A stretch of 10,760 nt of DNA from Bdellovibrionia bacterium. GTDB taxonomy: Bacteria; Bdellovibrionota; UBA1018. Each line of letters begins with the position of its first letter. Positions within the stretch are counted from its first letter, which is position 1. Shown piece after piece: positions 3,933 through 10,760 of this stretch. Position numbers and translations under genes: made by a program. The stretch covers positions 1 through 10,760 of the forward strand of contig JBJMMA010000148.1 in the NCBI GenBank assembly GCA_045805065.1. The letters are read 5' to 3'. The notes under the pieces are model-generated. The model saw only the letters and a list, made by a program, of their open reading frames with translations. It did no database searches and was not told the DNA's origin.

Positions 3933-4751
3933 ATGAAGAGCGGGGCCCAAAAATCTGCCCGGAAATTTGCCAAGAAATCCAACGTCCTGACCATCCTGGG
4001 TTGCGGAACCTCGACCGGCGTTCCCTTCATTAGCTGCAATTGTCCGGTTTGCCGCTCGAAAGATCCCAAAAACAACCGCACTCGCGCGTCCGCCTGGATC
4101 CAAGTGAACGGCAAAAGCATTGTGATCGATACGGGACCTGATTTCCGCCAACAGGTCCTGCGCGAGAAAATAAAGCATATTGATGCCGTCCTTTATACGC
4201 ACCCGCATGCCGACCATGTTCATGGCATCGATGAGCTCAGAAGCTTCAATTTCATTCAGAAAACGACCATTCCGGTTTACGGCAATGACTGGATCTTTGA
4301 GGAATTACCCATCAAATTCAGCTACATCTTCAAGCCGGGCTACGTTGAGGGCGGCGGCATTCCCATGCTCACCCTCCACAAGCTCAACCCCCGGAAAAAG
4401 GAAGTAAAAATCTCGGATATTCCGGTCGTCTTAATTCCGCACCAGCATGGCTCAAAAGAGTCGTTAGGATACCGTATCGAGTCCGTTGCCTATATTGCGG
4501 ATTGCAGCTATATACCTCCCACATCGTTAGATCGACTTCGAGGGTTGTCGGTACTGGTTCTGGACTGTCTCAGGCTCGAACCACACCGAACGCATCTCAA
4601 CTTGGATCGGGCGCTGGAGCTGGTGGCTGAGCTCAAGCCTAAAAAGGCTTATCTGACCCACCTGGGCCATGAGTTCGATTACAAGAAATGGGAAAAGAAA
4701 CTGCCTAAGGGAGTTCATCTGGCTTACGACGGATTAAAAATCCGTTTTTAG
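3933..4751 (+). CDS. MBL-fold metallo-hydrolase, PhnP-like phosphodiesterase family
   Basis: LTILGCGTSTGVP, CNCPVC zinc site, IDTGPDFRQQ, THPHADHVHG (HxHxDH), YIAD, THL, LTHLGH and AYDGL motifs. Confidence 0.93.
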   Translation: MKSGAQKSARKFAKKSNVLTILGCGTSTGVPFISCNCPVCRSKDPKNNRTRASAWIQVNGKSIVIDTGPDFRQQVLREKIKHIDAVLYTHPHADHVHGIDELRSFNFIQKTTIPVYGNDWIFEELPIKFSYIFKPGYVEGGGIPMLTLHKLNPRKKEVKISDIPVVLIPHQHGSKESLGYRIESVAYIADCSYIPPTSLDRLRGLSVLVLDCLRLEPHRTHLNLDRALELVAELKPKKAYLTHLGHEFDYKKWEKKLPKGVHLAYDGLKIRF

Positions 4752-4791
4752 AGTGTCTCTAAACGACAAAGACAATCAAAAGGAAATGACT

Positions 4792-5898
4792 ATGATCGTA
4801 GGTGTACCAAAGGAGATCAAGAATAAGGAAAACCGCGTCGGTATGGTGATCGCAGGCGTTCGCGCCCTCACCGCTGCCGGCCACAAAGTGCTCATTCAGC
4901 ACAATGCTGGCGTTGGCGCAGGTATCTCCAATGACGATTATCGCAAAGCAGGCGCAACGATCCTCGAAACGGCCAAGGAAGTTTACGACAAGGCCGACAT
5001 GATCGTTAAGGTCAAGGAACCTCTGCCAGAAGAATACGCGCTTCTTCGCGAAGGCCAGATCCTTTACACCTACCTCCACCTCGCAGCTGATGAGCGCCTC
5101 ACCAAGGCTCTCATGGAGCGCAAGATCGTAGGTATCGCTTACGAAACCATTCAGCCAGCTGACGGCTCCCTCCCACTCCTCGCTCCAATGAGCGCAGTGG
5201 CAGGACGCATGGCCACCCAAATCGGCGCAACCTACCTCCAGCACGATCACGGCGGTAAGGGCATGCTCCTCGGTGGCGTCCCAGGTGTTGACCGCGCAAA
5301 CGTCGTTGTTCTCGGCGGCGGCGTCGTCGGTATCAACTCCGCGAAGATGGCTGTCGGTCTTGGCGCAAAGGTCACGATCCTCGACACCAACGCTCATCGC
5401 CTCGACTATCTCGCCGATATCTTCGGAAACGAGATCACCACGATGTACTCCAACAACGAAACGATCGAGCGCGCTGTGACCGCAGCAGACCTCGTGATCG
5501 GCGCTGTTCTCGTTCCAGGCGCTAAGGCTCCTAAGCTTGTGAACCGCGAAATGATCTCCCGCATGCAACCAGGTGGCGTCGTTGTTGACGTCGCTGTTGA
5601 CCAAGGTGGATCCGTTGAAACCTGCCGCCCAACCAGCCACGAGCACCCAACCTACACGGTTGACGGCATCATCCACTACGCAGTTCCAAACATGCCAGGC
5701 GCTGTGCCACGTACTTCGACCTACGCGTTGACCAACGTCACCCTCAAGTACGCTCTCCAGATCGCAAACATGGGCTGGAAAGAAGCCGTCGCTAAGGATG
5801 CAGCGCTCCTCAAGGGCGTCAACATCCTCAACGGCAAGGTCACGTACAAGCAAGTCGCAGACGACCTCGGCTTGCCATACGAAGCTGTTAAGCTCTAA
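4792..5898 (+). CDS. ald: Alanine dehydrogenase
   Basis: [45 protein letters not shown] Rossmann motif, DVAVDQGG and [16 protein letters not shown] Shine-Dalgarno at 4780-4784 lies 7 nt before ATG 4792, so this start is preferred over GTG 4753. Confidence 0.97.
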
Positions 5899-5926
5899 TT
5901 CTTAGTGTTCACATAAGAACTCTCGT

Positions 5927-5968
5927 AAGGGCCTCAAGTGCGAAAGCACGAGAGGCCCTTCGTTTTTT
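5927..5968 (+). terminator. Rho-independent terminator of ald
   Basis: AAGGGCCTC-aa-GTGC-GAAA-GCAC-ga-GAGGCCCTT stem with a GNRA tetraloop, followed by CGTTTTTT, 28 nt after the ald stop. Confidence 0.85.
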
Positions 5969-6091
5969 AGGTTTGCACGAATTGAGATCAAAGCCGTGCG
6001 TCATCCATGACTAGGGACCCTAAAACCGCGCCTTCCTGGCGCTTCCCTAACGGTTTGATCTCAATTCGTGCAAACCTAAAAAACGAAGGGC
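5955..6091 (-). repeat. Hairpin element 1: perfect 38-bp inverted repeat enclosing a double GGA-loop core
   Basis: 5955-5992 is the exact reverse complement of 6054-6091. On the minus strand, core 5997-6050 contains GCGCC-AGGAA-GGCGC and GTC-ATGGAT-GAC. Confidence 0.9.
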
Positions 6092-6168
6092 ACCGCTCGA
6101 TCAGAGCCCTCGGCGCGCTGTACCGATCTCTTTTCCTTCCGAATGGCGGTCTTCCCAGGATCGATTGG

Positions 6169-6379
6169 GAGCCAATTCTGCCAATTCCAAAAGCTGAGAG
6201 CTGGGACTGAGGCATGGAACTGAGCTGATTCGAATGGCCTTTAGGGAAGCGCCAGGAAGGCGCGTTTTTAGGGTCCCTAGTCAGGAAGACGCAAGGACAT
6301 TCGAATCAGCTCAGTTCCATGCCTCAGCGTCAACTTTTAGGCCTTTTCAATCTTTGGAAATCACTTCAGAATTAGGCTT
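6169..6379 (+). repeat. Hairpin element 2: perfect 30-bp inverted repeat with an imperfect outer stem, enclosing a double GGA-loop core
   Basis: 6207-6236 is the exact reverse complement of 6298-6327. Core 6241-6293 is an inverted copy of 5997-6050 (2 substitutions, 1 indel), with GCGCC-AGGAA-GGCGC (6249-6263) and GTC-AGGAA-GAC (6280-6290). Outer pairings include TTCCAAA/TTTGGAA, AATTCTG/CAGAATT and AGCC/GGCT. Confidence 0.9.
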
Positions 6380-6386
6380 AAGACTT

Positions 6387-7118
6387 ATGAGCGAAGAAAA
6401 GAAACCAGCTGAAGCCAAGCCCAAGGGCCCCAAAGCTTCCAAGCTTCCCATGATCCTGCTTCTTGTGAACTTCCTGGCCATTGCCGGGGCCATGTACATG
6501 CTGGTTTACGTGAAGTTCCTGTACAAGCGTCCGTCCATTACCGAAGAGACCGAGCGCGCCCGCCTGGCAGCCCTGGCTGCTGCCACCCCCAAGGCTCCTC
6601 TGGAGCCAGGCCTTGTGAGTTTCGATGCAGTAACCTTGAACATCGCGCCATCCAATGGAAGGCCCCATTACGCCACCATCGGCTTTGCATTAGAGATTCG
6701 GGACAAAACCCGCCAAACGGACGTTGAAACCGTCCGCGCCCTCATCATGGACAAGTTTCTGGGTCTTGTGGGCCGCAAACAAGCTCACGAGCTCAATAAC
6801 GTTCAAGGACGATTCATCCTTCGCACTGAACTGACTGAAGCCGCTAACAAAGCCATCTTTGAAAACGCAGGCCGAATCAAAGCAGCCCCTGCCCCAAAAC
6901 CTGCCGCCGCTGGCGGTGGTGAACATGGTGGAGGTGGCGAGCACGGCGGTGGTGGAGAACATGGTGGCGGCGAAGGCGGCGGTGAACACGGTGGTGGCGG
7001 AGGCGAACATGGCGGTGGCCATGGCGAAAGCGCTAGCAGTGCTGAACACCAAGAGCCAAAGCCTCCGATTCGCGACCTCGTCACGAACGTCTACTTCAAC
7101 CAATTCATGGTTCAGTAA
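6387..7118 (+). CDS. fliL: Flagellar basal body-associated FliL family protein
   Basis: Charged N-terminus, single TM segment (MILLLVNFLAIAGAMYMLV), FDAVTLNI...HY...LE, GRFILRTEL and C-terminal VTNVYFNQFMVQ, all typical of FliL. Start placed at MSEEKK (6387); the upstream ATG 6234 lies inside hairpin element 2. Confidence 0.88.
   Translation: MSEEKKPAEAKPKGPKASKLPMILLLVNFLAIAGAMYMLVYVKFLYKRPSITEETERARLAALAAATPKAPLEPGLVSFDAVTLNIAPSNGRPHYATIGFALEIRDKTRQTDVETVRALIMDKFLGLVGRKQAHELNNVQGRFILRTELTEAANKAIFENAGRIKAAPAPKPAAAGGGEHGGGGEHGGGGEHGGGEGGGEHGGGGGEHGGGHGESASSAEHQEPKPPIRDLVTNVYFNQFMVQ
6912..7028 (+). repeat. Coding (GGGEH)n low-complexity repeat within fliL
   Basis: GGGEHGGGGEHGGGGEHGGGEGGGEHGGGGGEHGGGHGE, encoded by roughly 18-nt units with varied synonymous codons. 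Confidence 0.9.
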
Positions 7119-7119
7119 C

Positions 7120-7355
7120 CAAAAGGTGGTCGCCTACTTTTGGTAGCGATACCGCGTCAAAGCTCGGTAACCGAACAAATCAAAACGAACTGTGAATTAA
7201 GATAAAAGACCTCGTTGTGACTTCCTGTCACATTCCTTTGGCCCATCCTGGGCCGGAACGACTCAGTTTTTATCTTAATTCACAGTTCGTTTTGATTTGC
7301 TGGGCTCACCAGTTGTGACGCATGTGCGCTACCAAAAGTAGGCGACCACCTTTTG
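7120..7355 (-). repeat. Hairpin element 3: nested perfect 29-bp and 32-bp inverted repeats enclosing a double GGA-loop core
   Basis: 7120-7148/7327-7355 and 7176-7207/7268-7299 are exact reverse complements, and the spacers pair partly (GCGTCA/TGACGC). On the minus strand the loop has GGCCC-AGGAT-GGGCC (7240-7254) and TGTGAC-AGGAA-GTCACA (7216-7232). Confidence 0.9.
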
Positions 7356-7372
7356 CATGGTAGAAATGGATC

Positions 7373-8578
7373 ATGCACTTCCCTAGCATCATTCAGGATC
7401 TTGCCGTCATTTTGGGCGCGGCTGCGCTTGCTTCGATTCTTTTTCAGAAGATCAAGCAGCCGGTCGTTCTTGGATATCTTCTGGCAGGCCTGGTGATCGG
7501 ACCTCATACTCCGCCCTTCTCGCTCGTTGTGGATGAACCTGGGATTCGGGTGTGGTCAGAGCTCGGTGTGATCTTTCTGATGTTCAGCCTGGGACTTGAG
7601 TTCAGTTTCAAAAAGCTGCTCTCTGTAGGCAAGACGGCGGCTTTTACAGGACCTTTTGAAGCGATCTTCATGCTCGCCCTGGGGTTTGCATCAGGTAAAC
7701 TCATCGGTCTTTCTTCAACCGACAGTATCTTTCTTGGCGCGATTCTCTCGATCTCTTCCACGACGATCATCATCAAGGCGCTGGAAGAACTGAAGATCAA
7801 AAAAGAGCGCAGCTCTCAACTCATCTTCGGGATCCTGGTGGTGGAAGACCTCGCGGGGATTTTAATCCTGGTAGCCTTATCCACTTTCGCTTCATCAGGC
7901 GGCGAAAGCGTATCCGTACCGGGCCTCCTTCTCGAAGCAGCTAAACTCATCGGAATTGTTGCAAGCTGGATTGCAATCGGATCATGGCTTCTTCCACGAC
8001 TGGCGGCTTCGGTCAGCAAGCGATTTGGAAATGAAGCGCTTGTTTTGTTCGCGCTATCGCTCTGCCTCTTTCTTGTTTCACTCTCCGCTTACTTCCACTA
8101 CTCAGTGGCGCTCGGAGCCTTTGTCATGGGCGCAATTCTGGGCGAAAGCTCAGTCGTTCACGAAATCGAAAAACTCCTCGAACCGATCCGCGATGTATTT
8201 GGCGCCATTTTCTTTGTCTCGATCGGAATGCTTCTCAATCCAGCCGACCTGCAGACTTATTGGAAAATGATTCTGCTCGTGACTGTGCTCACGATCGGTG
8301 GAAAGTTCATCAGCACTTTCATCGGCGCAAAAATCACCGGCCAGACTCGTGAAGACTCGCTCAAAGCGGGACTCAGTCTCGCGCAGATCGGCGAGTTCAG
8401 CTTCATCATCGCAGGACTCGGCGTCGACCTTGGCGTCATGAGCCGCTATCTTTACCCGGTTGCTGTTGCCACTTCGGTCATCACGACATTTACAACCCCG
8501 TATATGATCCGTTTCGCCCAGCAGATCACCACGAGCCGCGACACGGATTCAGAGCAGCGTAAACGATCGATTGCTTGA
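7373..8578 (+). CDS. Cation:proton antiporter, CPA2 (Kef/YbaL-like) family, membrane domain only
   Basis: KQPVVLGYLLAGLVIGP, ELGVIFLMFSLGLEFS, SISSTTII, GILVVED, ALGAF, FFVSIG and AQIGEFSFI motifs, with many TM segments. No C-terminal TrkA/KTN domain. Confidence 0.93.
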   Translation: MHFPSIIQDLAVILGAAALASILFQKIKQPVVLGYLLAGLVIGPHTPPFSLVVDEPGIRVWSELGVIFLMFSLGLEFSFKKLLSVGKTAAFTGPFEAIFMLALGFASGKLIGLSSTDSIFLGAILSISSTTIIIKALEELKIKKERSSQLIFGILVVEDLAGILILVALSTFASSGGESVSVPGLLLEAAKLIGIVASWIAIGSWLLPRLAASVSKRFGNEALVLFALSLCLFLVSLSAYFHYSVALGAFVMGAILGESSVVHEIEKLLEPIRDVFGAIFFVSIGMLLNPADLQTYWKMILLVTVLTIGGKFISTFIGAKITGQTREDSLKAGLSLAQIGEFSFIIAGLGVDLGVMSRYLYPVAVATSVITTFTTPYMIRFAQQITTSRDTDSEQRKRSIA

Positions 8579-10760
8579 TCAAGGGCCGGATGATTGACAA
8601 CGCTTGAGCGCCACGAAAGCATCGCCGCCGCGTGAGATCTCATTGAGCACGCAATCAGTTTGTGGACTCTTCATCCAGCTCAGGGTGGAAAAGACGTCGT
8701 TGTTCCATCGCAGCTTCTTCTCTCGCACATAAGTCGCAATTTTACCAAGTGCCGCGGATTGGCGCGCATCATTCACTTGAGAGCAAAAATTCAAGACGGA
8801 GCTGTGAGACGGATTGAGATAATCCGAGGCAACGACCTTATCAATACAATCGACGGCCAGCTTGTCGCGCAGACCCGAAATCCCCGTCAGAGCACCATCG
8901 CTCCACTGCAAATTTTTATCGCGCACGTAAGAAACAATTTTGCTGAGTGCCGCTATCTGGTTCGCATTTTCCACTCCGCTGCAAAAATTCAAAACGGAGG
9001 AGTGAGCCGGATTGAAGTAGTTCGCGGCAATGACTTTATCGATGCATTCGAAAGCCAGATTGTCGTTCAGATACAATACGCCGCCAAAAGCGTCATTGTT
9101 CCACTGCAGCCTATTATCGCGCACATAGGTCGCGATCTTCTTGAGAGCATCCGATTGCGCAAAATTCTTCACATTACTGCAGAAATTCAAAACGGAGTTA
9201 TGAGATGGGTTGAAGTACTTCGCAGCAATGACTCTATCCACACAGTCAAAAGACGCATTATCGGTCAGATACAACACGCCGCCAAACGCATCGTTGTTCC
9301 ATTGCAGCCTATTATCCCGAACGTAAGCAGCAATTTTACTGAGAGCATCGGATTGGTTGATGTTCTTCACCTGAGTACAAAAATTTAAAACCGAGCTTTG
9401 AGACGGATTGAGATAATCGGCCGCAATGACTTTATTGATACAGTCAAGGGACAGCTTGTCGCGCACGGATAAAATCCCATTCAGAGCATCATCGCTCCAC
9501 TGCAGATTCCTATCGCGCACGTAGCCTGCCACTTTGGCAAGTGCTTCTACCTGGTCCGCATTTTCGACCGCGCTGCAGAAATTTAAAACGGAGGAATGAG
9601 TCGGATTGAAATAGTTCATGCCGACGACTTGATCGACGCAATTGAGTGATTGATTATCTTGTATCATCGACAACCTCTGCAAGGTGTCCTCACTCCAGCG
9701 CAACCGCTTATCTCGCACATCTGCCGAAATTTTACTCAGAGTACTGGATTGATGAATGTTTTTCACGTCGCTGCAGAAACGCAATACTGAGGTCTGAGAC
9801 GGATTGAGAAAATCGGTGTCGATGATTTGATTGACGCAGTCGAAAGACACATTGTCCGTTATCGATGAAATCCAGGCTAAGGCGTCATTGCTCCAAGACC
9901 ACTGCTTGGTCCGCACTTTGTTCACAATCTTTTTGAGGAGATCGATCTGAGCCGGAGTCGGATCCCGGTCACAGAAATTTTCAGCAGAGGATCCTTGAAG
10001 ACCAACCGATTTAAGAGCGCTCAAGCATGGACTTACAGCCGCTGGAGTCGCACCATTTGCCGAAGCATCCTGAGCTTGGGTCGAACTCTGCGCTGTGGGC
10101 TGCGAGGGGGTTTGCTTTGATTTTGAAGTGAGCTTTTCCAAAAGGATAAAAAGCGATCCTCCTCCCAGAACAGCCAAGGATAGTCTATCCGGAGGACGTC
10201 TTGAGGAGCCTACGACTGCTGGCGCTACTCCCACCTGAGTCAGATGCTGAGTCACGCAAACCGCAGGCGAATACTCGCGCGTTTCCTGACGGGCTTTGAG
10301 CCTGGAGCCATTCAGCCAAAGAACGCCATCTTGATCTCCAAACCGGACAAAATCTTTTCCCTCAACCGCATTCGGATCAACATCAAACACGATGGGCAAG
10401 CCACGTCCATTGCTGTAGGCACCTGCATTTGTTCCCTTGGCCGTATAGAATCCGCGCCCAAATACGGCAGTTTCGCCAGGATGGTCTTTTCTCGAAATAA
10501 ATGCCCGAGGCAGAGAATCATACCGCCAGGAAATCAGACGATGCGCAAAGTCATTCGTCTCATGCGCGACTTGCTTGATACCGAGCTTTTCTGCGGTCAG
10601 GGCTCCATCGGGAGCTTGTCCTTCCGGCTTCACCGGGAGTGGATATTTATTGAGCCACGAGGATAGAGTTCCCACCTCATTGGCGCTTCCGCCGATCTGC
10701 ATGAGCTTATGACGAAGTCCGAGCTGATTGAGGATCCGAAGTGCCTCATTGGGATCATAA
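8579..10760 (-). CDS. Large multidomain protein (5'-truncated) with an ART-like segment, a hydrophobic segment and C-terminal 66-aa tandem repeats
   Basis: The frame stays open upstream of ATG 10702 to the window edge (YDPNEALRILNQLGLRHKLM), so the true start is probably outside the window. VAHET...FGRGFYTA motif, AVLGGGSLFILL segment, S/Q/T/A-rich linker, then the repeats. Confidence 0.8.
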   Translation of the reverse strand, partial: YDPNEALRILNQLGLRHKLMQIGGSANEVGTLSSWLNKYPLPVKPEGQAPDGALTAEKLGIKQVAHETNDFAHRLISWRYDSLPRAFISRKDHPGETAVFGRGFYTAKGTNAGAYSNGRGLPIVFDVDPNAVEGKDFVRFGDQDGVLWLNGSRLKARQETREYSPAVCVTQHLTQVGVAPAVVGSSRRPPDRLSLAVLGGGSLFILLEKLTSKSKQTPSQPTAQSSTQAQDASANGATPAAVSPCLSALKSVGLQGSSAENFCDRDPTPAQIDLLKKIVNKVRTKQWSWSNDALAWISSITDNVSFDCVNQIIDTDFLNPSQTSVLRFCSDVKNIHQSSTLSKISADVRDKRLRWSEDTLQRLSMIQDNQSLNCVDQVVGMNYFNPTHSSVLNFCSAVENADQVEALAKVAGYVRDRNLQWSDDALNGILSVRDKLSLDCINKVIAADYLNPSQSSVLNFCTQVKNINQSDALSKIAAYVRDNRLQWNNDAFGGVLYLTDNASFDCVDRVIAAKYFNPSHNSVLNFCSNVKNFAQSDALKKIATYVRDNRLQWNNDAFGGVLYLNDNLAFECIDKVIAANYFNPAHSSVLNFCSGVENANQIAALSKIVSYVRDKNLQWSDGALTGISGLRDKLAVDCIDKVVASDYLNPSHSSVLNFCSQVNDARQSAALGKIATYVREKKLRWNNDVFSTLSWMKSPQTDCVLNEISRGGDAFVALKRCQSSGP
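8582..9946 (-). repeat. Six full and one partial 198-bp (66-aa) coding tandem repeats
   Basis: Consensus xxALxKIAxYVRDxxLQWxxDAxxxxxxxxDxxxxDCxxxVIAxxYxNPSHSSVLNFCSxVxNxxQ. The DNA motif TGCAGCCTATTATC recurs at 9105 and 9303, 198 nt apart. Confidence 0.95.

What the first reader, a model, noticed from the sequence alone, without database searches (positions are those of the whole stretch)
5955..7355. Family of three long-stem hairpin elements, each presenting a pair of CsrA/RsmA-type GGA stem-loops
Seen: three intergenic elements within 1.4 kb share one architecture. A long perfect stem (38 bp; 30 bp; 29+32 bp) closes a ~55-60 nt apical module made of a short closing helix, an extended bulged hairpin and a second hairpin. 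All six small loops are closed by C-G and read AGGAA (x4), AGGAU or AUGGAU on a consistent strand per element (-, +, -). The small stems covary (GCGCC/GGCGC vs GGCCC/GGGCC; GTC/GAC vs TGTGAC/GTCACA) while the loop is retained. Established: CAGGA(U/A/C)G and ANGGA hairpin loops are CsrA/RsmA binding sites, as in CsrB and RsmZ, and a CsrA dimer has two RNA-binding surfaces. Inference: this is a repeated structured-RNA family offering one two-site CsrA-dimer platform on a long dsRNA stalk, possibly released by RNase III as a mini-sponge. I do not recognise it as a described element.
Basis: partly seen in the sequence, partly recalled or inferred. Interest (0 to 1): 0.9.

Follow-up and report, generated by a model that had tools for sequence, protein, structure and literature searches.

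The report
TwoAYGGAY-like palindromic repeats with GGA loops
The three hairpins are real copies of a dispersed repeat of about 48 copies, a divergent relative of the published but untested TwoAYGGAY RNA motif, whose two small loops look like binding sites for the regulator CsrA.

Summary
El1 (5955-6091), El2 (6207-6327) and El3 (7120-7355) each have a long near-perfect stem. The stem closes a 51-61 nt core with two small hairpins, and on one strand their loops read AGGAA, AGGAU or AUGGAU.

They are not a local oddity. About 48 such elements lie in this 4.2 Mb genome. The same architecture occurs in at least six other genomes of the order. Arms are copy-specific, while the core shows strong covariation and conserved GGA/TCC loops.

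The family is not undescribed in kind. Rfam's TwoAYGGAY model (RF01731) matches six sister copies end to end, always on the GGA strand, at 29-39 bits. That is below its 43-bit cut-off, and it does not match the three window copies. TwoAYGGAY was proposed as a CsrA-binding RNA in 2015. A 2026 preprint describes it as multi-copy, REP-associated and enriched in divergent doublets, and I see all three traits here.

csrA is present, of the FliW type, and flagellin leaders carry the same loops. However, transcription, the functional strand and binding remain unshown. Wobble pairs are almost absent and favour neither strand, which fits DNA-level upkeep of the palindromes.

This scan had already noted the family in this genome, and TwoAYGGAY-like repeats on other DNA.

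The parts
5955..6091 (-). El1: whole element (type B). Arms 5955-5992 and 6054-6091, core 5993-6053. The GGA loops read on the minus strand.
   Evidence: The 38-bp stem is perfect; z = -15.8 (+) and -14.0 (-).
6000..6011 (-). El1 small hairpin 1: 3-bp stem with hexaloop AUGGAU on the minus strand (ATCCAT on plus).
6028..6042 (-). El1 small hairpin 2: 5-bp stem with loop AGGAA on the minus strand. It sits inside an extended bulged helix.
6092..6206 (.). 115-nt spacer between the two members of the divergent doublet El1/El2. It is unique in the genome and holds no promoter-like match.
6207..6327 (+). El2: whole element (type B). Arms 6207-6241 and 6293-6327 (35 bp, 1 mismatch), core 6242-6292. 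The GGA loops read on the plus strand. The core is the reverse complement of the El1 core.
6249..6263 (+). El2 small hairpin: 5-bp stem with loop AGGAA.
6280..6290 (+). El2 small hairpin: 3-bp stem with loop AGGAA.
7176..7299 (-). El3 proper (type A): inner arms 7176-7207 and 7268-7299 (32 of 32 paired), core 7208-7267. The GGA loops read on the minus strand.
   Evidence: Model R1 scores it at 90.8 bits.
7216..7232 (-). El3 small hairpin 1: 6-bp stem with loop AGGAA on the minus strand.
7240..7254 (-). El3 small hairpin 2: 5-bp stem with loop AGGAU on the minus strand.
7120..7148 (.). Left copy of a separate REP-like palindromic repeat that brackets El3. It starts 2 nt after the fliL stop codon.
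   Evidence: it recurs at many loci. The G001 ortholog keeps this repeat but lacks the inner hairpin and core.
7327..7355 (.). Right, inverted copy of the same REP-like repeat.
5927..5960 (+). Intrinsic-terminator-like hairpin of the alanine dehydrogenase gene. Its 3' half and T-run overlap the start of El1's left arm.
   Evidence: I5. It is conserved in G001.
6387..7118 (+). fliL (flagellar basal-body protein), flanked by El2 and El3.
   Evidence: PF03748, E = 1.7e-12.

Best explanation
The three elements are copies of a dispersed, palindromic, probably mobile-element-like repeat family of Bdellovibrio-like bacteria. The family is a divergent branch of the TwoAYGGAY kind of element: a basal stem of free sequence closes two sequential hairpins whose loops carry GGA.

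Identity as such a family is well supported; I put it at about 0.85.

The most likely mechanism is inferred, not shown. I put it at about 0.4. When the GGA strand is transcribed, the two C-closed A(N)GGA(N) loops, about 23 nt apart, would bind the two RNA-binding faces of one CsrA dimer. The roughly 48 copies would then act as distributed CsrA decoys or local CsrA recruiters.

Spread and upkeep look like DNA-level processes. Copies sit at gene 3' ends and often form divergent doublets. The two arms of each copy are kept complementary, probably by one arm being copied from the other, while they drift freely between copies.
For: Family size: 45 elements were found by my own scans, plus 3 more by covariance model R1.

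Copy-specific arms: for 32 of 38 arms tested, the only genome matches are the arm itself and its partner.

Same architecture elsewhere: R1 matched G001 (8 copies), G046 (3), G066 (3), G018 (3) and G069 (1), that is 6 of 75 family genomes counting G000. G056, in another family of the order, has 40 copies of the hairpin-2 module, with arms up to about 75 bp.

Structure: 93.7% of cells are paired against 64.4% in shuffles, 21 of 23 pairs show double changes, and 0 of 500 shuffles reach the observed values (the alignment was fitted to the model).

Loops: NTCCT in 65 of 73 hairpin-1 loops and TCC in 67 of 74 hairpin-2 loops. The orthologous hairpin reads AAGGAU in G001, AUGGAU in El1 and AGGAA in El2, so only GGA and the flanking A are kept.

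TwoAYGGAY: RF01731 aligns over its full length (1-168) to six sister copies, all on the GGA strand, at 38.9, 35.7, 32.1, 30.5, 29.2 and 29.1 bits.

Shared genomic habits: in G000, 7 doublets are divergent, 1 convergent and 0 tandem (p = 0.0004 against 25%). The preprint reports 68.4% divergent doublets, REP association and multi-copy spread in Pseudomonas.

CsrA context: csrA lies between flgL and fliW. It is present in 119 of 127 genomes of the class. Two of 7 flagellin leaders have AUGGAU hexaloop hairpins. Bdellovibrio CsrA represses a GGA-hairpin leader in B. subtilis (PMC13443453, passages read).

Published proposal: CsrA binding of TwoAYGGAY was proposed in PMC4333381 (passage read).
Against: No transcription evidence. 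The three RNA runs laid hold only contigs of relatives' coding parts and none across the elements, so this gives no verdict.

No sigma-70-like promoter on either strand in 5850-7450 (0 found, 1.0 expected). El3 has only 17 nt between its end and the next start codon.

Wobble pairs are nearly absent and favour neither strand. In the core helices there are 1420 Watson-Crick cells, 11 G:T on the TCC strand and 17 on the GGA strand. In the long arms the counts are 26 against 22. A one-stranded functional RNA family usually tolerates G-U, so this pattern fits a constraint that acts on DNA or on both strands.

Both strands fold equally well.

In tandem gene contexts the GGA strand is sense in 15 cases and antisense in 14, so read-through would give UCC loops as often as GGA loops.

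The three window copies themselves get no RF01731 match at E <= 10, and no copy reaches 43 bits.

From my own knowledge: FliW-type CsrA systems are not known to use RNA antagonists. The abstract start of PMC4894983, seen in a search listing, points the same way.
Confidence: 0.45

Rival explanations
1. Purely DNA-level selfish or structural repeat of the REPIN or MITE kind. The small hairpins with TCC/GGA loops would be recognition features for a mobilising or processing enzyme acting on single-stranded or cruciform DNA. The likeness to CsrA sites would be coincidental or secondary.
For: Multi-copy spread, contigs that end inside copies, divergent doublets and preference for convergent intergenic regions (33 convergent against 7 divergent, p = 4e-5).

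The arms are near perfect yet unique per copy. Wobble pairs are almost absent and strand-symmetric.

In the G001 orthologs one copy has lost its arms, and the other has lost its left arm and core, as expected of unstable palindromes.

The core lies in the opposite orientation, relative to the orthologous left flank, in El1 and in G001.

Six Y1 HUH (RAYT/IS200-like) genes are in the genome, and El3 is nested in a REP-like doublet.
Against: None of the six Y1 genes is flanked by NTCCT hairpins.

Cores stay 90-95% alike among copies whose arms have diverged to saturation, and stay conserved across genera. That argues for selection on each core rather than recent transposition.

No near-identical whole copies were found; the best arm-to-arm matches between copies are 88-90%.

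The only invariant part of the loops is GGA with a flanking A, in both penta- and hexaloop form. That is the known CsrA rule (recalled), and the same loops occur in flagellin leaders.
Confidence: 0.3
2. Sense-strand RNA element at gene 3' ends. Transcribed by read-through, the long hairpin would protect or terminate the upstream RNA, as REP elements do. The UCC loops with a CCUC linker would act as anti-Shine-Dalgarno-like or anti-GGA seeds.
For: Copies abut stop codons: gaps of 0-15 nt in many cases, and El3's bracket starts 2 nt after the fliL stop.

Four copies abut tRNA genes and one abuts the 6S RNA gene.

There is a strong preference for 3'-3' intergenic regions.
Against: No orientation preference where it can be read: 14 TCC-sense against 15 GGA-sense in tandem gene contexts.

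El1 lies behind a canonical terminator.

Loop variants ATCCAT and ATCCTT break UCCU but keep GGA on the other strand.

I know of no partner for UCC loops.
Confidence: 0.12
3. Invertible DNA switch. The long inverted arms would let the core flip, changing what is presented on a given strand.
For: El1's core is inverted relative to the G001 ortholog, while the left flank is collinear. Both orientations occur equally among copies.
Against: The arms differ between copies, so no common invertase site exists. No promoter lies in the core. Only contigs were available, so no read-level evidence of both orientations at one locus could be sought. The El1/El2 state is equally explained by an inverted duplication.
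Confidence: 0.05

Closest known systems
TwoAYGGAY RNA motif (Rfam RF01731; Weinberg et al. 2010, PMC2864571; extended in bioRxiv 10.64898/2026.09.22.753630)
   Same: A basal stem of poorly conserved sequence closes two sequential hairpins with GGA-containing terminal loops. The model aligns end to end on the GGA strand of six sister copies. Like TwoAYGGAY, the family is multi-copy, forms divergent doublets about 150-260 bp apart, and is associated with REP-type repeats. CsrA binding is the published hypothesis for the motif (PMC4333381).
   Different: All scores are below the 43-bit cut-off, the best being 38.9, and the three window copies get no match at E <= 10. Loops are mostly pentaloops AGGA(U/A/C) rather than hexaloops AYGGAY. 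One hairpin sits in an extended bulged helix. Arms are longer and nearly perfect (30-75 bp). The host is a Bdellovibrio-like lineage with FliW-type CsrA. The published range is human gut, Gammaproteobacteria/Pseudomonadota and Clostridiales/Bacillota, and 'Bdellovibrio' occurs 0 times in the preprint's main text. Its supplements could not be seen.
CsrB / RsmY / RsmZ sponge RNAs of Gammaproteobacteria
   Same: Short hairpins present GGA in C-G-closed loops.
   Different: There are only two sites per unit instead of 5-22. There is no dedicated promoter or terminator. The element is a dispersed palindromic repeat rather than a single gene. No CsrB, RsmY or RsmZ model was listed in the Rfam scans. 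The tool did drop 1-2 lower-scoring overlapping matches from the same clan without naming them.
REP / BIME / REPIN elements mobilised by RAYT transposases
   Same: Intergenic, hairpin-forming and multi-copy, sited at gene 3' ends, with compensated arms. El3 is nested in a true REP-like inverted doublet, and RAYT-like Y1 genes are present.
   Different: The conserved part is the centre, not the ends, and the arms are copy-specific. No Y1 gene is flanked by the NTCCT hairpins.
Flagellin 5' leaders regulated by FliW-CsrA (B. subtilis hag, C. jejuni flaA)
   Same: The same loop type (AUGGAU in a short C-G-closed hairpin) occurs in 2 of 7 flagellin leaders of this genome. That shows what the resident CsrA most likely reads.
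   Different: Those are single cis-acting sites next to a ribosome-binding site. They are not repeats on long stalks.

Membership tests
TwoAYGGAY (RF01731) | Covariance-model score at or above Rfam's gathering score of 43 bits. | tested here: not met
   The whole genome gave 5 matches at E <= 1, none over the cut-off and the best at 35.7 bits. Locus scans gave 38.9, 35.7, 32.1 and 29.1 bits. El1-El3 gave no match at E <= 1 in the window scan or at E <= 10 in the locus scan.
TwoAYGGAY (RF01731) | Two sequential hairpins emerging from one basal stem. | tested here: met
   Folds of El1-El3, the consensus fold of 29 copies and pair counts on 74 cores. The RF01731 alignment places both hairpins and the basal stem.
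TwoAYGGAY (RF01731) | Terminal loops with the consensus AYGGAY. | tested here: inconclusive
   Only 1 of 6 window loops is AUGGAU; the other 5 are pentaloops AGGAA or AGGAU. Family-wide, hairpin 1 reads AGGAN in 65 of 73. GGA and the 5' A are kept, but the Y is missing.
TwoAYGGAY (RF01731) | Genomic habit reported for Pseudomonas: multi-copy, divergent doublets and flanking REP-type repeats. This is characteristic rather than defining. | tested here: met
   About 48 copies. There are 7 divergent, 1 convergent and 0 tandem doublets. REP-like brackets surround type-A copies. Compare section 8 of the preprint.
CsrB/Rsm-type CsrA sponge RNA | Transcribed as an RNA carrying the GGA strand, with its own promoter and terminator. 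| tested here: inconclusive
   No promoter-like site in 5850-7450. RNA-run contigs do not cover the elements. Reads that could show the strand were not available.
CsrB/Rsm-type CsrA sponge RNA | GGA-dependent binding of CsrA. | not testable with these tools
   This needs an EMSA or CLIP experiment. Only compatibility is shown: csrA is present and like loops occur in flagellin leaders.
REP/REPIN (RAYT-mobilised) | A RAYT gene flanked by copies of the repeat, with conserved ends carrying the recognition hairpin. | tested here: not met
   Six Y1_Tnp genes. None is flanked by NTCCT hairpins; one (C34) is flanked by a different short palindrome. The ends of the elements are copy-specific.
MITE | Conserved terminal inverted repeats plus target-site duplication. 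| not tested
   Type-A arms share about 12 conserved outer bases and about 9 inner bases. Target-site duplications were not examined.

The most novel reading that the evidence does not exclude
In a phylum where CsrA is thought to be checked only by the protein FliW, a self-propagating palindromic repeat has scattered about a hundred high-affinity two-site CsrA platforms around the genome. Mobile-element spread and global post-transcriptional control would then be coupled, with copy number setting the CsrA buffer. The stalks would be kept perfect by a DNA-level self-correcting palindrome mechanism, which would explain why the family shows compensated changes without wobble intermediates.
Probability: 0.25. 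Interest if true: 0.7.

Novelty: new variant of a known kind. Interest (0 to 1): 0.45.

Why it matters
TwoAYGGAY is one of the most widespread bacterial structured-repeat families that still lacks a function.

This branch extends the architecture to Bdellovibrio-like predators. The conserved part is stripped down to two A(N)GGA(N) loops on a free-sequence stalk.

The lineage has a single, FliW-linked CsrA, and Bdellovibrio CsrA has been shown to be active on GGA hairpins. That makes the CsrA-decoy idea directly testable with one protein and a 60-nt RNA.

The near absence of wobble pairs, together with strong compensation, is a warning. Covariation in palindromic repeats can arise at the DNA level and should not be read as proof of an RNA.

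Tried and rejected
1. Orientation against neighbouring genes. My first statistic was that the TCC strand is co-oriented with the upstream gene in 32 of 42 cases (p = 0.0009). It is confounded: in a convergent gene pair it is true whichever way the element lies. Split by context over G000, G056 and five other genomes, the counts are 33 convergent, 7 divergent, 14 tandem TCC-sense and 15 tandem GGA-sense. So there is a preference for 3'-3' regions but no strand preference. Gene calls were crude, taking the longest ORFs of at least 90-100 aa.

2. Sequencing runs. Of 20 runs, none held half of the words. I laid 3 RNA runs and 1 DNA run, and all were contigs. The RNA contigs cover the alanine dehydrogenase gene of relatives, a few short pieces in fliL and in the next gene, and short pieces (39-51 nt, 1-5 differences) on El3's arms and REP-like bracket that do not reach its core. 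None covers an element's core or spans an element. This gives no verdict on transcription.

3. Pattern scan with two CWTCCTG boxes in 61 genomes. It was noisy because CATCCTG is a common Ile-Leu codon pair.

4. Scan of genome contigs with a two-box pattern. Model R1 found only two weak matches in unrelated MAGs.

5. Arms as inverted copies of the native flank. I rejected this for type A, because its arms carry conserved outer and inner frames. It stays open for El1/El2.

6. Core inserted into pre-existing long palindromes. Only 1 coreless hairpin with type-A-like arm ends was found, at C60:70267-70329, among 9 short-loop palindromes.

7. csrA co-occurrence. csrA is in 119 of 127 genomes of the class, so this has no discriminating power.

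8. Enrichment near flagellar genes. Of 10 genes lying downstream of a GGA-sense copy, one is a flagellin and one a response regulator beside the flagellin cluster. fliL, downstream of El2, was missed by the crude gene calls. The numbers are too few to claim anything.

9. Literature. No paper linking such repeats to Bdellovibrio was found in four searches: Bdellovibrio + CsrA (13 papers), Bdellovibrio + repetitive extragenic palindromic (2), Bdellovibrio + inverted repeat + intergenic + hairpin (3) and TwoAYGGAY (13).
Full report
**1. The observation**

- El1 has 38-nt arms (5955-5992 / 6054-6091) that are 100% complementary, around a 61-nt core.
- El2 has 35-bp arms (6207-6241 / 6293-6327) with one mismatch, so a perfect run of 30 bp, around a 51-nt core.
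- El3 has a perfect 29-bp outer stem (7120-7148 / 7327-7355) and a perfect 32-bp inner stem (7176-7207 / 7268-7299) around a 60-nt core.

On one strand of each element (minus, plus, minus) the six small loops read AUGGAU, AGGAA, AGGAA, AGGAA, AGGAA and AGGAU. Each is closed by C-G. The El1 and El2 cores are reverse complements of each other (46 nt, 96%). Folding energies lie 11.6 to 15.8 standard deviations beyond shuffles, on both strands alike.

**2. Surroundings**

The window encodes these genes:

- a metallo-beta-lactamase-fold protein (3933-4751)
- alanine dehydrogenase (4753-5898)
- FliL (6387-7118)
- a Na+/H+ exchanger (7373-8578)
- a SWIB-domain protein (8579-10702, minus strand)

El1 follows a canonical terminator hairpin of the dehydrogenase gene (5927-5960) and shares its T-run. 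El1 and El2 are separated by a unique 115-nt spacer. El3 fills the gap between fliL and the exchanger gene, starting 2 nt after the stop codon and ending 17 nt before the next start codon.

**3. The family in this genome**

I ran two scans of the 4.22-Mb assembly (262 contigs).

- The scan for long inverted repeats gave 55 pairs. Of these, 38 have a 40-85 nt centre, and nearly all of those centres carry two small hairpins with (A/T)TCCT loops.
- The scan for pairs of such hairpins gave 42 pairs. I set aside 5 that lie inside genes without arms.

Merging the two scans, and dropping one arm-only pair, left 45 elements. Covariance model R1, built from 29 El3-like cores, added 3 more, for a total of about 48.

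The cores fall into about five sequence types. El3 belongs to the largest type, with about 31 copies. El1 and El2 are the only two of their type.

For 32 of 38 long arms, the only genome matches are the arm itself and its partner. Within the El3 type, the arms share about 12 conserved outer bases and about 9 inner bases around a free middle.

The outer 29-bp stem of El3 is a different, REP-like repeat that recurs at many loci and brackets many El3-type copies.

**4. Relatives**

The same-genus genome G001 keeps the gene order.

- Between the dehydrogenase gene and fliL it has one core, not two. That core lies in El2's orientation. Its left flank is homologous to El1's left arm and its right flank to El2's right arm.
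- Its small hairpins are intact (AGGAA and AAGGAU), but there is no long stem (z = -1.2).
- At El3's place it keeps the REP-like bracket but has lost the left inner arm and the core.

These palindromes are therefore gained, lost and rearranged on the time scale of one genus.

R1 found the architecture in 6 of 75 genomes of the family, counting G000: G000 35, G001 8, G046 3, G066 3, G018 3 and G069 1. Each copy has 30-55 bp copy-specific arms in the base composition of its host.

A 14-letter module of hairpin 2 occurs in 49 of 127 genomes of the class. The reversed control pattern gave 6 hits in all. G056, in another family of the order, holds 40 copies. There the arms reach about 75 bp and the loops read (G/A)TCCT and ATCCT.

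**5. Structure and conservation**

I counted pairs on 74 distinct cores from seven genomes. The alignment was fitted to R1, so the counts lean towards its structure.

- 93.7% of cells form standard pairs, against 64.4% in shuffles and 32-49% when the partners are slid.
- 21 of 23 pairs show changes on both sides.
- None of 500 shuffles reaches the observed values.

The loops are kept. Hairpin 1 reads NTCCT in 65 of 73 cores, and hairpin 2 keeps TCC in 67 of 74. On the other strand this is AGGA followed by U, A, C or G. The hexaloop variants are A(U/A)GGAU. Only GGA and the flanking A are invariant.

**6. Which strand, RNA or DNA?**

This question stays open, and several tests were neutral.

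- Both strands fold equally well.
- Wobble pairs are almost absent and symmetric. In the core helices there are 1420 Watson-Crick cells, 11 G:T on the TCC strand, 17 on the GGA strand and 48 other. In the long arms the counts are 26, 22 and 43.
- I first found the TCC strand co-oriented with the upstream gene in 32 of 42 cases. That statistic is automatically satisfied between convergent genes, so it is confounded.
- Split by context over seven genomes, the counts are 33 convergent, 7 divergent, 14 tandem TCC-sense and 15 tandem GGA-sense.

The elements therefore prefer 3'-3' intergenic regions (p = 4e-5) but show no strand preference relative to neighbouring genes.

Other checks:

- No sigma-70-like promoter is predicted in 5850-7450.
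- The RNA runs available are contigs that do not cover the elements.
- Four copies abut tRNA genes and one abuts the 6S RNA gene.

Strong compensation without wobble intermediates is what one expects if one arm is copied from the other at the DNA level. I tested it only through the mismatch spectra.

**7. Evidence bearing on CsrA**

- The genome has one csrA. It encodes 74 aa and scores 90.9 bits, and it lies between flgL and fliW. This is the FliW-CsrA module.
- csrA is nearly universal in the class: 119 of 127 genomes, and 75 of 75 good-quality ones. Co-occurrence therefore says nothing.
- Two of 7 flagellin genes have, about 60-70 nt upstream of the start codon, a short hairpin with an AUGGAU hexaloop closed by C-G. 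Others carry GGA in loops and at the ribosome-binding site. I read these by eye. This is the expected CsrA target context, and it shows the same loop as El1.
- A 2026 paper reports that Bdellovibrio bacteriovorus CsrA represses the B. subtilis hag leader through its GGA stem-loops. It also says that little is known of CsrA regulation in this predator (PMC13443453; passages read).

**8. Comparison with what is known**

An Rfam scan of the window gave only microRNA-precursor and snoRNA noise. Earlier notes of this scan on other genomes pointed me to the TwoAYGGAY motif, so I tested it.

RF01731 aligns over its whole length to six sister copies at 38.9, 35.7, 32.1, 30.5, 29.2 and 29.1 bits. All six matches are on the GGA strand, and all are under the 43-bit cut-off. 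The alignment places the free-sequence basal stem and both GGA hairpins. El1-El3 themselves get no match at E <= 10.

What the literature says:

- Weinberg et al. 2010 list TwoAYGGAY as a probable RNA, not cis-regulatory, found in human gut, Gammaproteobacteria and Clostridiales. I saw the table row and the supplementary alignment.
- Gardner and Eldai 2015 proposed it as a CsrA-binding sRNA, with validation still pending. I read the passage.
- Li et al. 2026 (bioRxiv) describe it in Pseudomonas as multi-copy (medians of 11-23, up to 202), often in doublets of which 68.4% are divergent at a median of 249 bp, and sited next to REP arrays. They discuss a Csr/Rsm sponge role and a mobile-element-like expansion. 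I read the abstract, all of section 8, and passages of the discussion and methods.

In G000 I find 7 divergent doublets, 1 convergent and 0 tandem (p = 0.0004 against 25%). There is one more divergent doublet in G001 and one in G046. REP-like brackets are also present. The family thus shares the architecture, the strand of the match and the genomic habits of TwoAYGGAY. It fails the formal score and differs in loop length, arm length and host lineage.

**9. Verdict**

The finding is real and well structured, but it is not a new kind of element. It is a new, sub-threshold variant of a known and functionally unsolved family, in a lineage where that family has not been reported in the papers I could search.

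It remains untested.

My best reading is a mobile-like palindromic repeat whose GGA strand, when transcribed, binds a CsrA dimer. I give the function about 0.4. A purely DNA-level repeat is the main rival, at about 0.3.

Noticed in passing
window 7120-7148 and 7327-7355; also G000 C34:40677-40726: A REP-like palindromic repeat brackets El3 and many sister copies and sits right at stop codons. The genome has six Y1 HUH (RAYT/IS200-like) genes. The one on C34 is flanked by two tandem copies of a related 21-nt palindrome.
   Followed up: partly
window 6912-7018: fliL carries a tandem 18-27 nt coding repeat with five copies in this stretch. It gives a Gly/His/Glu-rich stretch (GGGEHGG-like) near the C-terminus. 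G001 has a similar but not identical array.
   Followed up: no
G000 C60:70267-70329: A 30-bp near-perfect hairpin with arm ends like those of the El3 type, but with a 3-nt loop and no core. It may be an empty or core-deleted relative.
   Followed up: no
G000 C143:5850-5974 (L047:264-388, minus strand): A 6S RNA gene (54.6 bits, over its cut-off of 46.4) lies 4 nt from a hairpin element. Four other elements directly abut tRNA genes (C19, C175, C238, C39).
   Followed up: partly
G000 C39:1, C175:5, C102:1; G056 contig ends (C2, C8, C12, C13, C14, C28, C39): Many contigs begin or end inside these elements, so the repeats break short-read assemblies and copy numbers are lower bounds.
   Followed up: no
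G000 C143:555 and C143:1891, upstream regions: Two flagellin genes have a leader hairpin with an AUGGAU hexaloop and a GGAGGA ribosome-binding region. This is the expected FliW-CsrA control site.
   Followed up: partly
window 6330-6386 and L003 (G001) equivalent: A conserved stretch just upstream of fliL looks like a sigma-28-type promoter (TTAAG/TTTAG, then about 14 nt, then GAAATC). If real, El2 lies upstream of the fliL transcription start and is not in its leader.
   Followed up: no
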